NCBI GenBank assembly: GCA_034420475.1
Contig: DAOULH010000042.1
Coordinates: 9,187 to 73,186, forward strand
Direction: 5' to 3'
Length of the DNA: 64,000 nt
Origin: Dehalococcoidia bacterium
Lineage (GTDB): Bacteria; Chloroflexota; Dehalococcoidia; Lucifugimonadales; UBA3495
The notes below the pieces were generated by a model, which was given only the letters and a program-made list of their open reading frames with translations, made no database searches and was not told the origin of the DNA. Every line of letters begins with the position of its first letter. Positions within the stretch are counted from its first letter, which is position 1. The position numbers and the translations under genes were made by a program. This document shows positions 40,876 through 56,528 of this stretch, piece by piece.

Positions 40876-40974
40876 AGAGTTGTCGCTGATGCAAGTTCGC
40901 ACGGGCCAGATATTAGCCGTCTCACTTACAGCGCGAACCAGAACGACCCTGTTGAGCGCAGAGCAGAGTTCCGA

Positions 40975-41150
40975 GGCAACACCGGGCAGGTCTCCTGGCT
41001 CGCGGCTCTCAACCGAACCGACGCCTTCCCACAATCCGCGTTGGGCGGATGGCAGTGGCCAATCGTCGGCCGGTTCCCCGCTTACAGTGGCGCAACCGCG
41101 GCGGATTCGCACCGCCTTCCCAATTAAGCCCATGGGTTTGAATAGCGCCC
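40975..41150 (-). promoter_or_regulatory. Cobalamin (B12) riboswitch
   Basis: The minus strand reads ...GGGAAGGCGGTGCGAATCCGCCGCGGTTGCGCCACTGTAAGCGGGG...GGCCACTGCC...GGGAAGGCG...GAGCCAGGAGACCTGCCCGG. The GGTGxxAAxCC, GCCACTG and AGCCAGGAGACCTGCC (B12 box) consensus blocks appear in the correct order. Confidence 0.9.
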
Positions 41151-41289
41151 GGTGTCCGGTTTTCGAATGTTAATGCGCGGACGAGCCGCGCAGCCAATGT
41201 AGCCGGGATGCCTGGGCTTGTCAACGGTCGGATCAAGGGGCATGTTACCCTGTCAATGGAATCAACCGCATACCAAGGACGTAATACGA

Positions 41290-54526: not shown

Positions 54527-55600
54527 CTAATCCGCGGGTACGGCAACCTCGCTGCCGATCGATTCGTAGGCCCACTCCAGCAGGTCCACGGTCTCGTCCC
54601 AACCGATGCAGGAGTCGGTGATGGAGATGCCGTACTCCAGCTCGGACGGGTCGGCGCCGAGCTTCTGGGCGCCGGGATTGATGTTGCTTTCCAGCATCAC
54701 CCCGATGAGGTCGGAGTTGCCGGTCAACCGCTGCTGCAGCACGTCGCGGAAGGCGATGTGCTGGCGGGTGTGGTCCTTGTTGGAATTGCCGTGGCTGCAG
54801 TCCACCACTATGGGAGCGGGAGCGCCGGACTTGCGGAGGGCGTCAGTGGCCTCGGCGATGGATCGGGCGTCGAAGTTGGTGCCGCTGCGGCCGCCGCGCA
54901 TGACCAGGTGACAGTTGCGGTTCCCGCGGGTCTCGACGATAGAAGCCTGGCCGTCGTGGTCGATGCCGAGGAACGCCTGCGGCGTCCGGGCGGCGACGAG
55001 GGCGTCAACGGCGGTCTGGGGGTCGCCGTCGGTGCCGTTCTTGAAGCCCACGGGCATCGACAGGCCGGATGCCATCTGGCGGTGGATCTGGCTCTCGGTG
55101 GTGCGGGCGCCGATGGCGGCCCAGGTGACGAGGTCGGCGACGTACTGGGGCACGATGGGGTCGAGGAATTCGGTGGCGGAGCTCAGTCCGGTTTCGGCGA
55201 TCTCAAGCAGCAGCTGGCGAGCGCGATGCAGACCGTCCTCGATCTGGTAGGTGTCGTTGAGGTTGGGGTCGTAGATGAGGCCCTTCCAACCAACGGTGGT
55301 GCGCGGCTTCTCGAAGTAAACCCGCATCACGATCATGATGCGGTCGCTGAGGCGGTCGGCCAGGGGCTTGAGACGGGCCGCGTAGTCCAGCGCGCCCGAC
55401 TGATCGTGGATGGAGCAAGGACCGACAATGACGGCGAAGCGCTCGTCGTCGCCGTTGAGCACGTTCTCGAGTTGGCGACGGCTGTCGAGCACGACCTCTT
55501 CTGCCTTGTCGGTGAGGGGAATTCGGGCCTCCAGTTCGGACGGTCGGATCAATGCGTTGTTACTCATCACGTTCACATCTTTTGCCGGTGAGATTGCCAT
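54527..55600 (-). CDS. aroG: 3-deoxy-7-phosphoheptulonate (DAHP) synthase, class I
   Basis: GPCSIHD, KPRTTVGWKGLIYDP, IGARTTESQ, DCSHGNS. AGGAGG lies 8 nt upstream of the ATG at 55600. Confidence 0.9.
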   Translation of the reverse strand: MAISPAKDVNVMSNNALIRPSELEARIPLTDKAEEVVLDSRRQLENVLNGDDERFAVIVGPCSIHDQSGALDYAARLKPLADRLSDRIMIVMRVYFEKPRTTVGWKGLIYDPNLNDTYQIEDGLHRARQLLLEIAETGLSSATEFLDPIVPQYVADLVTWAAIGARTTESQIHRQMASGLSMPVGFKNGTDGDPQTAVDALVAARTPQAFLGIDHDGQASIVETRGNRNCHLVMRGGRSGTNFDARSIAEATDALRKSGAPAPIVVDCSHGNSNKDHTRQHIAFRDVLQQRLTGNSDLIGVMLESNINPGAQKLGADPSELEYGISITDSCIGWDETVDLLEWAYESIGSEVAVPAD

Positions 55601-55643
55601 CTTTTTGTCCTCCTGACGGTACCGGGTGCGGGGCTGACGTTAC

Positions 55644-55682
55644 CAACAAAAAGGACTTCAGCCTCCGTCCGGCTGAAGTCCT
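55644..55682 (-). terminator. Attenuator terminator in the aroG leader
   Basis: On the minus strand: AGGACTTCAGCC-GGACGGA-GGCTGAAGTCCT followed by TTTTGTTGG, 44 nt upstream of the aroG ATG. Confidence 0.8.
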
Positions 55683-55717
55683 GCCAAAGTGGTTGTCACC
55701 AAGTTTTATCGGGCTTC

Positions 55718-55810
55718 TCACGCCGGGTTTACGCTGGCCGCGCTGCGGTAAGCGTAAAAGTAAAAGGGGCGATAATACCCGGGGGCGATTTGGCGGCAGG
55801 CGGTACTCAT
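55718..55810 (-). CDS. Candidate aromatic-amino-acid leader peptide (30 aa)
   Basis: MSTACRQIAPGYYRPFYFYAYRSAASVNPA* has 5 Tyr and 2 Phe within 10 residues. The stop lies 36 nt before the terminator stem. Confidence 0.6.
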   Translation of the reverse strand: MSTACRQIAPGYYRPFYFYAYRSAASVNPA

Positions 55811-55820
55811 GTTGACGGAA

Positions 55821-55849
55821 ATGCTACTCCCGCCGCACTCCGTTGTCAA
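55821..55849 (-). promoter_or_regulatory. Candidate sigma-70-type promoter of the aroG leader
   Basis: The minus strand has TTGACA, a 17-nt spacer, then TAGCAT. Only 10 nt separate the -10 element from the leader ATG, which would imply a near-leaderless peptide. Confidence 0.4.
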
Positions 55850-55950
55850 CGGGTTTCGGCGAAAGCAAGTGTTCGCGTTTGAAGGGCATCCTGGTAGCAC
55901 AGGCATTCCTGCCCGTGGGAGCCGCCAGGGTGCTCCGCTATAGTGAGCAG

Positions 55951-56481
55951 TTATCGGCGAAGCTCTTCGCGGCCAAGGGACTCAGCCAGCAGGCGACCAC
56001 ACAATTCGCAGGGTGAAGACCCCGAGTAATCATAGTCGCGTTGCAACATCCGGCGCCAGTCGCGGTTGATAGCGTAACAGCAGATGGGGGCGGTAATCGG
56101 AAAGGTAAGCAGCACGAACAGTACGATGAGGATGATGGTAATGACGTTGCCCATCGGGAGGTCATCGATCCAGACCAGACTGCGGCCCAGGATTCTTTCC
56201 CAACGAGGCATAGGTTCGGAGCGGTATCCTGGCAGCGGCTCCCGAAAAGGGCGCCCTTCGGCTTGAGCGTAACTTCTGCGCGTCAGCCACAGGTTCATCC
56301 TGTCAGCCGACTCACGGTCGCGGCGCTCGGCCCGTTCGGCTTCCAGAGGATCGGTGTAATGCTCTTTCAGGTAAATCTGGCGCGCCCGCATTGTTGAGCC
56401 GGGCATCAAGAAACTCGGAACCCGGCTGTTAAGGTTAAGACTGGCGAGGTGCTGCTGGCGGCATTCCGGATGCATCGGCAT
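55951..56481 (-). CDS. Hypothetical membrane protein (176 aa or shorter)
   Basis: ORF with one TM segment (VITIILIVLFVLLTFPITAPICCYAI). The start is uncertain. Confidence 0.4.
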   Translation of the reverse strand: MPMHPECRQQHLASLNLNSRVPSFLMPGSTMRARQIYLKEHYTDPLEAERAERRDRESADRMNLWLTRRSYAQAEGRPFREPLPGYRSEPMPRWERILGRSLVWIDDLPMGNVITIILIVLFVLLTFPITAPICCYAINRDWRRMLQRDYDYSGSSPCELCGRLLAESLGREELRR

Positions 56482-56528
56482 TCCAGACGTGCCTCCTGAA
56501 AAGATTGCCGGCCGTGGGATCCAATGGG

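What the first reader, a model, noticed from the sequence alone, without database searches (positions are those of the whole stretch)
55644..55849. Tyr/Phe-rich leader peptide plus terminator upstream of DAHP synthase: ribosome-mediated attenuation candidate
Between the upstream gene and aroG the minus strand encodes MSTACRQIAPGYYRPFYFYAYRSAASVNPA*, with 5 Tyr and 2 Phe in a 10-residue run. A strong terminator (12-bp stem, 7-nt loop, TTTTGTT) follows 36 nt after the stop and lies 44 nt before the aroG ATG. The Tyr/Phe codon run (TTTACGCT..CCGC) can pair with downstream GCGG..AGCGTAAA, a 1:2-type hairpin. GAAGCCC just after the stop can pair with GGACTTC in the 5-prime terminator arm, a possible antiterminator. 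Leader-peptide attenuation is classical for pheA, trp and his in Proteobacteria. Its use on a DAHP synthase in this high-GC, apparently non-proteobacterial background would be noteworthy. One caveat: the best promoter match (TTGACA-17-TAGCAT) leaves almost no 5-prime UTR and there is no SD, so the peptide would be leaderless or translated from a longer upstream transcript.
Basis: partly seen in the sequence, partly recalled or inferred. Interest (0 to 1): 0.6.

Follow-up and report, generated by a model that had tools for sequence, protein, structure and literature searches.

The report
Tyr/Phe leader-peptide attenuator before aroG
A short tyrosine/phenylalanine-rich mini-gene and a transcription stop signal in front of the first gene of aromatic amino-acid synthesis most likely form a classic ribosome-sensed on/off switch; this mechanism is already known for the same enzyme in another phylum, and here it appears in sponge-associated Chloroflexi.

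Summary
On the minus strand, a promoter-like site (55849-55821) precedes a 30-codon ORF (55810-55718). Seven of ten consecutive residues in that ORF are Tyr/Phe. A 12-bp intrinsic terminator (55682-55652, U tract to 55645) follows, then a class-I DAHP synthase gene (55600-54527).

In 23 loci from related Chloroflexi genomes (AroG 82-97% identical) the promoter, ATG, aromatic run and terminator are all conserved. A segment overlapping the leader stop codon can capture the terminator's 5' arm. It pairs in 90% of cells against 14-47% in slid controls, and includes one three-way compensatory change. This capture is predicted only when a ribosome is stalled on the aromatic codons.

Independent aromatic mini-ORFs with terminators precede aroG in 20 of 151 loci from several phyla, against 0 of 151 in the control.

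The mechanism on a DAHP synthase gene outside the Proteobacteria is not new: Corynebacterium glutamicum aroR-aroF is an experimentally characterised precedent. This is a new member of a known kind, with no Rfam family and apparently leaderless translation. Interest is moderate to low.

The parts
55844..55849 (-). -35 box TTGACA
   Evidence: It is invariant in every relative whose alignment reaches it.
55821..55826 (-). -10 box TAGCAT, with a 17-nt spacer. It ends 10 nt before the leader ATG, so the leader mRNA would have a 5' UTR of roughly 0-4 nt.
   Evidence: TAnnAT is conserved and sits 6-10 nt from the ATG in relatives. The spacer sequence varies while its length is kept. The transcription start site is inferred, not mapped.
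55718..55810 (-). Leader ORF of 30 codons plus TGA: MSTACRQIAPGYYRPFYFYAYRSAASVNPA. It has no Shine-Dalgarno sequence.
   Evidence: The ATG is invariant in 16 of 16 aligned leaders. In most relatives the TGA is replaced by TGT and the ORF ends 4 codons later at TAA.
55748..55777 (-). Regulatory codon run TAT TAT cgc ccc TTT TAC TTT TAC gct TAC (5 Tyr, 2 Phe)
   Evidence: One search shows it is unique in the window. One search shows 5-8 aromatic residues in relatives. One search shows both Phe codons are the rare TTT, which makes up 18% of Phe codons in the window's genes.
55745..55781 (-). Region 1, the 5' strand of the anti-antiterminator: CGGGU..UCGC.CC plus UUUACGCU..CCGC. It lies under the aromatic codons.
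   Evidence: Seen in the MFE folds. It pairs in 83% of cells against 31-44% in slid controls, but has no two-sided covariation.
55710..55741 (-). Region 2: GCGG..AGCGUAAA plus GG.GUGA...GCCCG. It contains the antiterminator strand CCGGC-GUGA-GAAG-C-CC (55726-55711) and the leader stop codon (55720-55718).
55690..55701 (-). Small spacer hairpin UGGU-GACA-ACCA enclosed by the antiterminator
   Evidence: It is partly conserved. Its role is unknown.
55652..55682 (-). Intrinsic terminator. Region 3 is the 5' arm AGGACUUCAGCC (55682-55671), the loop is 55670-55664, and region 4 is the 3' arm (55663-55652).
   Evidence: The stem is nearly invariant while the loop varies. L177 has U-A changed to C-G, and five leaders have U.G at the same pair.
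55645..55651 (-). U tract UUUUGUU of the terminator
55608..55614 (-). Shine-Dalgarno sequence AGGAGGA of the DAHP synthase gene
   Evidence: GGAGGA is invariant in 16 of 16 leaders, in contrast to the SD-less leader ORF.
54527..55600 (-). Regulated gene: class-I (aroFGH-type) DAHP synthase, 357 aa

Best explanation
This is a ribosome-mediated (leader-peptide) transcription attenuator that ties expression of the DAHP synthase gene to the supply of charged tRNA-Tyr and tRNA-Phe.

Transcription starts at a sigma-70-type promoter a few bases before the leader AUG. A ribosome begins translating the 30-codon leader on an essentially leaderless mRNA.

When Tyr and Phe are plentiful, the ribosome runs to the stop codon. 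That codon lies inside region 2, so region 2 is occluded. The terminator (regions 3:4) then forms and RNA polymerase stops at 55651-55645.

When Tyr-tRNA or Phe-tRNA is scarce, the ribosome stalls on the TAT/TAC/TTT run. The stalled ribosome covers region 1 and leaves region 2 free. CCGGC..GAAG.CC of region 2 pairs with GG.CUUC.GCCGG, which is the terminator's 5' arm plus its first loop bases, before the 3' arm has been made. Polymerase reads through into aroG, which is then translated from its own strong SD.

Without any ribosome, regions 1 and 2 pair and the terminator forms.

Shown here: the parts, their conservation, the alternative pairings and their dependence on a modelled ribosome position. 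Inferred: the transcription start, translation of the ORF, and the response to amino-acid supply.
For: 1. Parts in the right order: promoter, SD-less ORF with an aromatic run, terminator, SD, aroG.
2. The aromatic run is unique in 64 kb across six frames.
3. In 23 loci whose AroG is 82-97% identical, the leader core G-Y-Y-R-P-F-Y-F-Y-A-Y-R is kept, with Y/F/W interchanges and 5-8 aromatic residues.
4. The module stays with aroG when the upstream gene differs, as in L168, L174-176 and L180.
5. The antiterminator pairs in 89.9% of cells, against 14-47% when the partner is slid. Column 151:217 is A-U in four leaders and G-C in four, and it links region 2 to a terminator loop base. In L177 the 5'-arm U->C change is matched both in the 3' arm and in the antiterminator strand.
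6. With the 3' arm not yet transcribed, a ribosome modelled on any Tyr/Phe codon gives the antiterminator as the MFE structure in all 16 leaders. The probability that the 5' arm is paired is 0.73-0.83 in most (0.53-0.55 for some stall sites in L174), against 0.32-0.39 in nearly all (0.56 in L177) with the ribosome at the stop.
7. The energy of 5'-arm capture is -10.3 kcal/mol in the window, against -5.2 +/- 2.7 for shuffled spacers and -5.2 with the ribosome at the stop. In independent leaders z reaches -5.3.
8. 20 of 151 aroG loci from several phyla have an aromatic mini-ORF plus terminator, against 0 of 151 reverse-complement controls.
9. The rare codon TTT is used for 28 of 34 Phe codons in the leaders, against 18% in the window's genes.
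10. Precedent: aroR-aroF in C. glutamicum (PMC4046766, PMC11802643).
Against: There are no transcript or expression data.

At equilibrium the terminator is predicted in every state, so the switch has to be kinetic. From my recollection this is also true of E. coli trp.

The window's own antiterminator is only modestly better than shuffles (z = -1.9, 4.5% of shuffles as good). In L177, L168 and L103 it is not significant.

The 1:2 pairing has no two-sided covariation.

The 16 aligned leaders are closely related (effective sequence number 1.36), so the covariation rests on very few events.

The leader has no SD, and the -10 to ATG distance of 10 nt in the window implies a 1-4 nt 5' UTR rather than a strictly leaderless start. 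Leaderless genes were predicted for only about 5% of genes in 4 of 12 Chloroflexi genomes (PMC3160421).
Confidence: 0.8

Rival explanations
1. The hairpin is just the terminator of the upstream transcription unit (trpA and the 176-aa ORF), and the small ORF is a chance reading frame.
For: The terminator lies downstream of co-directional genes, and no other strong terminator-like site lies between trpA and aroG.
Against: A conserved promoter sits between the upstream gene and the terminator. The promoter-ORF-terminator module stays attached to aroG when the upstream gene is different. The ATG and the aromatic run are conserved. The aromatic run is unique in the window. The reverse-complement control found 0 of 151.
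Confidence: 0.03
2. The terminator/antiterminator switch is real, but it is set by a trans factor or a ligand (an RNA-binding protein, an uncharged tRNA as in T-boxes, or a metabolite). The ORF is incidental to the RNA structure.
For: Thirteen consecutive bases, UUACGCUUACCGC (55757-55745), are invariant even at synonymous sites, while their pairing partner varies. This suggests a constraint beyond coding and beyond that hairpin. The leader has no SD.
Against: No Rfam family, T-box included, matches even at E <= 10. Leaders in distant lineages share neither sequence nor the non-aromatic residues, yet all keep a run of Tyr/Phe/Trp codons just upstream of an antiterminator strand. That is what codon sensing predicts and ligand or protein binding does not. 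The invariant ATG and open frame are kept in all relatives.
Confidence: 0.07
3. The ORF encodes a functional small protein, or the terminated ~165-nt leader RNA is a trans-acting sRNA. In this reading the attenuation-like layout is secondary or additional.
For: Within the close family the peptide core, including non-aromatic residues (R-P, A, R), is highly conserved. Dual roles are documented for the Sinorhizobium trpL attenuator RNA and peptide (PMC7968998, PMC7298713).
Against: The conserved non-aromatic codons coincide with the paired segments of regions 1 and 2, which explains their conservation. The N- and C-terminal parts of the peptide vary freely. Distant leaders conserve only aromatic composition.
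Confidence: 0.05
4. Translation of the leader mainly controls aroG translation, not transcription, for example by opening a long-range pairing that masks the aroG SD.
For: RNAalifold pairs CC.CC of leader codons 3-4 (55803-55799) with GG.GG of the aroG SD.
Against: That pairing is only four pairs with an internal mismatch, and it shows no covariation because the SD is invariant. A canonical 12-bp terminator with a U tract lies between leader and gene and is the most conserved element.
Confidence: 0.05

Closest known systems
aroR-aroF attenuator of Corynebacterium glutamicum (Mentz et al. 2013, PMC4046766; Neshat et al. 2014, as described in PMC11802643 and PMC7356990)
   Same: A short leader ORF with Phe/Tyr codons (Phe-Tyr-Phe) lies upstream of a DAHP synthase gene. 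Ribosome stalling on these codons increases transcription of the gene. The organism is high-GC and not a proteobacterium.
   Different: The phylum differs (Actinobacteria versus Chloroflexi). The present leader has a much longer aromatic run, 7 of 10 residues and Tyr-dominated. Sequence or structural homology could not be tested here. The C. glutamicum system has experimental support; this one has none.
pheL-pheA and trpL-trp leader-peptide attenuators of Enterobacteria (Rfam Phe_leader and Trp_leader, named from memory)
   Same: The logic is the same four-region scheme: regulatory codons in region 1, a 2:3 antiterminator, and a 3:4 intrinsic terminator. Energies are comparable: the antiterminator is worth about -10 kcal/mol and is weaker than the terminator.
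   Different: No Rfam covariance model matches. The regulated gene is the first enzyme of the common pathway, not a terminal-branch enzyme. Tyr and Phe codons are mixed. There is no SD. The leader stop codon lies inside or directly after the antiterminator strand.
Leaderless leader peptides of Deinococcus deserti (PMC4007540) and poly-Cys leaderless short ORFs of mycobacteria (bioRxiv 10.1101/834739)
   Same: The sensor ORF starts at or within a base or two of the transcript's 5' end, has no SD, and precedes an amino-acid biosynthesis gene that has its own SD.
   Different: In those organisms the 5' ends were mapped. Here the leaderless start is inferred only from conserved promoter-to-ATG spacing of 6-10 nt. 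The amino acids sensed and the phyla differ.

Membership tests
Ribosome-mediated (leader-peptide) transcription attenuators | A short upstream ORF enriched in codons for the end-product amino acid(s) of the regulated pathway | tested here: met
   The 30-codon ORF has 7 Tyr/Phe in 10 residues upstream of a DAHP synthase gene. It is unique among 104,682 six-frame windows.
Ribosome-mediated (leader-peptide) transcription attenuators | An intrinsic terminator between the leader ORF and the structural gene | tested here: met
   A 12-bp stem with a U tract at 55682-55645, conserved in all 16 aligned leaders.
Ribosome-mediated (leader-peptide) transcription attenuators | An antiterminator (2:3) mutually exclusive with the terminator | tested here: met
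   CCGGC..GAAG.CC pairs with GG.CUUC.GCCGG in 89.9% of cells against 14-47% in slid controls, with two pairs changed on both sides. Capture energy is -10.3 kcal/mol against -5.2 +/- 2.7 in shuffles.
Ribosome-mediated (leader-peptide) transcription attenuators | An anti-antiterminator (1:2) whose 5' strand overlaps the regulatory codons, so that a stalled ribosome frees region 2 | tested here: met
   It is present in the MFE folds and pairs in 83% of cells against 31-44% in slid controls. Modelled stalling frees region 2 in all 16 leaders. Covariation for 1:2 is absent, so the support is thermodynamic and from conservation only.
Ribosome-mediated (leader-peptide) transcription attenuators | Regulatory codons conserved in orthologous leaders while the rest of the peptide drifts | tested here: met
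Ribosome-mediated (leader-peptide) transcription attenuators | The leader ORF is actually translated | tested here: inconclusive
   There is no SD. The ATG is invariant, and the conserved promoter ends 6-10 nt upstream, which is compatible with leaderless initiation. No transcript or ribosome data are available.
Ribosome-mediated (leader-peptide) transcription attenuators | Read-through responds to the supply of charged tRNA | not testable with these tools
   This needs Term-seq, reporter or in vitro assays.
Rfam leader families (Phe_leader, Trp_leader, His_leader and others) | A match to the family covariance model | tested here: not met
   cmscan of the window at gathering score, and of 55500-56050 at E <= 10, gave no match in the leader.
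T-box riboswitch | Stem I with a specifier codon and the conserved T-box sequence | tested here: not met
   No Rfam hit at E <= 10. The leader from ATG to terminator is only about 165 nt and is mostly coding.
aroR-aroF attenuator of C. glutamicum | Sequence or structural homology to the aroR leader | not tested
   The aroR sequence is not in the collections searched here. Only functional analogy is claimed.
Leaderless attenuator ORFs (Deinococcus, Mycobacterium type) | The transcription start lies at or within about 1-5 nt of the start codon | not testable with these tools
   The spacing from the -10 box to the ATG is 10 nt in the window and 6-10 nt in relatives. In more distant Chloroflexota leaders it is 7-12 nt. 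The start site is not mapped.

The most novel reading that the evidence does not exclude
Two readings go beyond a plain attenuator, and the evidence excludes neither.

First, the terminated ~165-nt leader RNA, or its conserved peptide core RPFYFYAYR, could have a second role in trans, as shown for rnTrpL/peTrpL in Sinorhizobium. The peptide might also act as a nascent-chain sensor. The hint is a 13-nt block, UUACGCUUACCGC, that is invariant at synonymous sites while its pairing partner drifts.

Second, and more modestly, strictly leaderless translation would make the switch readable only on transcripts started at its own promoter. Read-through from upstream genes would then always terminate.
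Probability: 0.07. Interest if true: 0.6.

Novelty: new member of a known kind. Interest (0 to 1): 0.35.

Why it matters
It extends classical leader-peptide attenuation of the committed step of aromatic amino-acid synthesis to Chloroflexi/Dehalococcoidia, here in uncultured sponge-associated lineages. I found no description of such attenuators for this phylum in the searchable literature.

It also shows that aromatic-codon leaders recur in front of class-I DAHP synthase genes in several phyla (20 of 151 loci) without any Rfam family. The practical value lies in annotation: a new cis-regulatory family, and mis-called or uncalled 30-34-aa 'hypothetical proteins'. The element could also serve as a read-out of Tyr/Phe limitation in symbiont metatranscriptomes. 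It does not change the understanding of the mechanism.

Tried and rejected
- **Rfam** gave nothing in the leader.
- **The JGI metagenome scan** returned only relatives at 63% identity or less. Close relatives had to come from exact-protein look-ups.
- **Equilibrium folding** of the full leader with a masked ribosome footprint does not discriminate between states, because the terminator always wins. It was replaced by folding the nascent transcript without the 3' arm.
- **A long-range helix** GCCAAA (codons 6-8): UUUGGC, just 5' of the terminator, appears in the window's MFE fold. It is not kept consistently in the relatives, so I make no claim for it.
- **Covariation for the 1:2 pairing** was sought and not found.
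- **Homology of distant leaders:** the covariance model R1 gives only weak hits (E from 7e-4 to 0.08) on L084, L098, L103, L110, L002, L003 and L182. Common ancestry with these leaders is therefore possible but not shown; convergence is equally possible.
- **Unavailable sources:** the supplementary table of D. deserti leader peptides and Lopatovskaya et al. 2010 were not held. I could not check whether a DAHP synthase leader or a Chloroflexi attenuator was listed there.
- **The extra ~600 bp with a 176-aa ORF** has no family match and no similarity in any fetched locus.

Full report
**What is there**

All features lie on the minus strand. The layout, 5' to 3', is as follows.

| Feature | Coordinates | Notes |
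|---|---|---|
| -35 box TTGACA | 55849-55844 | followed by a 17-nt spacer |
| -10 box TAGCAT | 55826-55821 | 10 nt before the leader ATG |
| Leader ORF, 30 codons | 55810-55718 | MSTACRQIAPGYYRPFYFYAYRSAASVNPA, no Shine-Dalgarno |
| Terminator hairpin | 55682-55652 | 12 bp, 7-nt loop |
| U tract UUUUGUU | 55651-55645 | |
| Shine-Dalgarno AGGAGGA | 55614-55608 | belongs to the DAHP synthase gene |
| DAHP synthase gene, 357 codons | 55600-54527 | PF00793; TIGR00034 aroFGH |

The protein scores below the cut-offs of the AroG- and AroH-specific models, so its feedback specificity is unknown.

**Is it more than chance?**

- The promoter-like site is the only one in 4 kb.
- The 230-nt leader folds better than its shuffles (z = -3.3).
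- Of 104,682 stop-free 10-residue windows in the six frames of the whole 64-kb window, only four contain six or more F/Y/W, and all four are in this ORF.

**Organism and relatives**

The AroG protein has many relatives at 82-99% identity in ENA/NCBI assemblies. These are named Chloroflexi or Dehalococcoidia bacterium, or were mis-assigned to the sponge Geodia barretti. The nearest species-representative genome is 'Chloroflexi bacterium SB0662_bin_27' (L001, 87%).

Twenty-three loci with AroG 82-97% identical, plus three at 64%, were fetched. Every locus that extends far enough upstream has the same mini-ORF. The core G-Y-Y-R-P-F-Y-F-Y-A-Y-R carries 5-8 aromatic residues, with Y/F/W interchanges, occasional losses (Y->C, Y->R, F->T) and gains (R->Y). 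The N- and C-terminal parts vary.

In the DNA alignment several things stand out:
- The -35 box, the TAnnAT -10 box, the ATG, the terminator stem, the U tract and the aroG SD are conserved.
- The promoter spacer, the terminator loop and the terminator-to-SD spacer vary.
- The -10 box ends 6-10 nt before the ATG, and no relative has an SD.

The module stays with aroG when the upstream gene is not trpA (L168, L174-176, L180). It therefore belongs to aroG and not to the upstream unit.

**Alternative structures**

The free leader folds into a long hairpin. In it the codons for P-G-Y-Y-R-P (CGGGU..UCGC.CC) pair with GG.GUGA...GCCCG around the leader stop codon. The terminator follows.

At equilibrium the terminator is predicted whatever part is masked. 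From my recollection of E. coli trp this is expected, because there too the antiterminator is weaker than the terminator and the choice is kinetic.

I therefore folded the nascent RNA up to the terminator loop, before the 3' arm exists. With a ribosome modelled on any Tyr/Phe codon (everything up to 12 nt past the A-site codon masked), all 16 leaders adopt the same structure. CCGGC..GAAG.CC (55726-55711) pairs with GG.CUUC.GCCGG, which is the 5' arm plus the first two loop bases. In most leaders the probability that the 5' arm is paired is 0.73-0.83 (0.53-0.55 for some stall sites in L174). With the ribosome at the stop codon this strand is covered, and the probability falls to 0.32-0.39 in nearly all leaders (0.56 in L177).

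The energy gained by capturing the 5' arm in the window is:
- -10.3 kcal/mol with a stalled ribosome;
- -5.2 kcal/mol with the ribosome at the stop;
- -6.2 kcal/mol with no ribosome;
- -5.2 +/- 2.7 kcal/mol for shuffled spacers (z = -1.9).

**Comparative support for the pairings**

| Helix | Cells paired | Slid controls | Two-sided changes |
|---|---|---|---|
| Antiterminator (2:3) | 89.9% | 14-47% | two pairs |
| Anti-antiterminator (1:2) | 83% | 31-44% | none |

For the antiterminator, column 151:217 is A-U in four leaders and G-C in four. It links region 2 to a terminator loop base that the terminator itself does not constrain. In L177 a U->C change in the 5' arm is matched by A->G both in the 3' arm and in the antiterminator strand.

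For the terminator, one pair shows a full compensation and five leaders show U.G at the same pair.

The aligned leaders are close relatives (effective sequence number 1.36). These are few evolutionary events, and the shuffle statistics should not be read as probabilities.

**Independent lineages**

I scanned 151 aroG loci from many phyla (AroG about 50-63% identical). Twenty-four have a mini-ORF with 5 or more of 8 aromatic residues within 400 nt upstream, and 20 of these are followed by a terminator. The reverse complements of the same regions gave 0 of 151.

The leaders fall into at least a dozen unrelated peptide types. Examples:
- MRELPANRYFGYYFYRTDCEVVG
- MIQNYFTYYYYFKKRRANCRV
- MNTRKTGKFYFYYRYYFYTRLPVLR
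- MNLTLQKRSAEFTNETTTGFFWFGFYYFFEK

They come from Dehalococcoidia/Chloroflexota, Deltaproteobacteria and Pseudomonadales MAGs, and from unassigned metagenome contigs.

In most of them the spacer contains a strand complementary to their own, different terminator 5' arm. Capture energies with a stalled ribosome are -9 to -18 kcal/mol, with z down to -5.3 against shuffles. With the ribosome at the stop they are near zero.

Several other leaders fetched with aroG (the named Dehalococcoidia L002 and L003, plus L081, L084, L098, L103 and L182, which carry no taxon name) also have TTGACA-17/18-TAnnnT ending 7-12 nt before the ATG with no SD. The deltaproteobacterial ones have SD-like AAGGA/AGGGA.

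A covariance model of the window's family finds one copy in the window (164 bits) and one upstream of aroG in all 23 close-relative loci (114-158 bits). It gives only weak hits on the distant leaders. The close family is therefore one RNA family. The wider set shares the design, but common descent is not demonstrated.

**Codon choice**

In 29 long ORFs of the window, TTT makes up 18% of Phe codons and TAT 18% of Tyr codons. The leader uses TTT for both Phe codons and TAT for two of five Tyr codons. Across the relatives, 28 of 34 Phe codons are TTT. This fits tuning for sensitivity, but it could equally reflect RNA-pairing constraints.

**Mechanism**

This is a four-region ribosome-mediated attenuator sensing Tyr-tRNA and Phe-tRNA, as laid out under the best explanation.

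One detail stands out. The leader stop codon lies inside the antiterminator strand in the window, L163 and L165, and directly after it in most other relatives (CGA UAA). A terminating ribosome therefore physically blocks antitermination.

The parts, their conservation and the alternative pairings are shown here. The transcription start, translation of an SD-less ORF and the physiological response are inferred.

**Comparison with what is known**

- Leader-peptide attenuation is classical for trp, pheA, his and other operons.
- For a DAHP synthase gene it is published for C. glutamicum aroR-aroF, whose leader contains Phe-Tyr-Phe and whose read-through rises under Phe limitation (PMC4046766; Neshat 2014 as cited in PMC11802643 and PMC7356990).
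- SD-less or leaderless leader peptides are documented in D. deserti (PMC4007540) and in mycobacteria (bioRxiv 10.1101/834739). The reference list of PMC4046766 also cites a C. glutamicum ilvB leader formed without a ribosome-binding site.
- In 2010, leader peptides were said to be known only in Proteobacteria and Actinobacteria, with Firmicutes newly added (PMC2965389).
- I found no paper describing such attenuators in Chloroflexi. The library is incomplete, and one relevant survey (Lopatovskaya et al. 2010) was not available.
- No Rfam model matches.

**Verdict**

This is a new member of a known kind: the phylum is new, the RNA family is uncatalogued, and translation of the leader is apparently leaderless. 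Confidence in the mechanism is 0.8 and interest is 0.35.

Noticed in passing
window 40968-41167 (-): A cobalamin riboswitch (RF00174) at 99.4 bits, E = 1.2e-23. It was the only Rfam hit at gathering score in the 64-kb window.
   Followed up: no
window 55951-56481 (-), within the trpA-to-leader gap 55850-56528: The window has about 600 extra bases between trpA and the leader promoter, carrying a 176-aa ORF with a hydrophobic stretch. In relatives the trpA-to-aroG gap is about 315 nt, against 929 nt here. The ORF matches no Pfam or NCBIfam family, and the segment has no similarity to any fetched locus or to the rest of the window.
   Followed up: partly
window 55745-55757 (-): Thirteen consecutive bases, TTACGCTTACCGC (codons F-Y-A-Y-R), are invariant in all 16 aligned leaders, including synonymous positions. 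Their pairing partner (GCGG..AGCGTAAA) varies. The constraint goes beyond that hairpin and is unexplained.
   Followed up: partly
window 55799-55803 with 55609-55613 (-): RNAalifold pairs CC.CC of leader codons 3-4 with GG.GG of the aroG Shine-Dalgarno sequence, a possible long-range SD mask. It is only four pairs and shows no covariation because the SD is invariant.
   Followed up: partly
L168, L174-L176, L180 (upstream of 1501): The gene upstream of the leader-aroG module is not always trpA. It is an unannotated 372-aa protein in L168, unannotated ORFs next to an IS1-type transposase fragment in L174, and a PLD/SNF2 helicase in L180. Downstream synteny (GNAT acetyltransferase, then cytidylate-kinase-like where the fetched DNA reaches it) is kept; in L174-L176 an extra reverse-strand ORF lies between aroG and the GNAT gene. 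This suggests rearrangement hot spots just upstream of the promoter.
   Followed up: no
L064, L073, L110 (Deltaproteobacteria-type) and L077 (Pseudomonadales MAG): Unrelated Tyr/Phe-rich leader ORFs with terminators precede aroG here too. The deltaproteobacterial ones have SD-like sequences. L077 has a promoter-like TTGCAG-16-TATTAT ending 7 nt before its ATG, so it looks leaderless as well.
   Followed up: partly
L166 1407-1508: In one relative the leader ORF had been called as a 33-aa gene with no annotation, and the aroG call was extended upstream to 390 aa across the terminator. This is an example of how such leaders get mis-annotated.
   Followed up: no
L008, L012, L017, L018, L030 (Dehalococcoidia/Chloroflexi MAGs), upstream of aroG: These loci have weaker aromatic-containing mini-ORFs, for example ...YFGYGYTDRLFMYGRSYRS and ...NYRWFYICRRRA. 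They fell below my threshold and may be degenerate or differently organised leaders.
   Followed up: no
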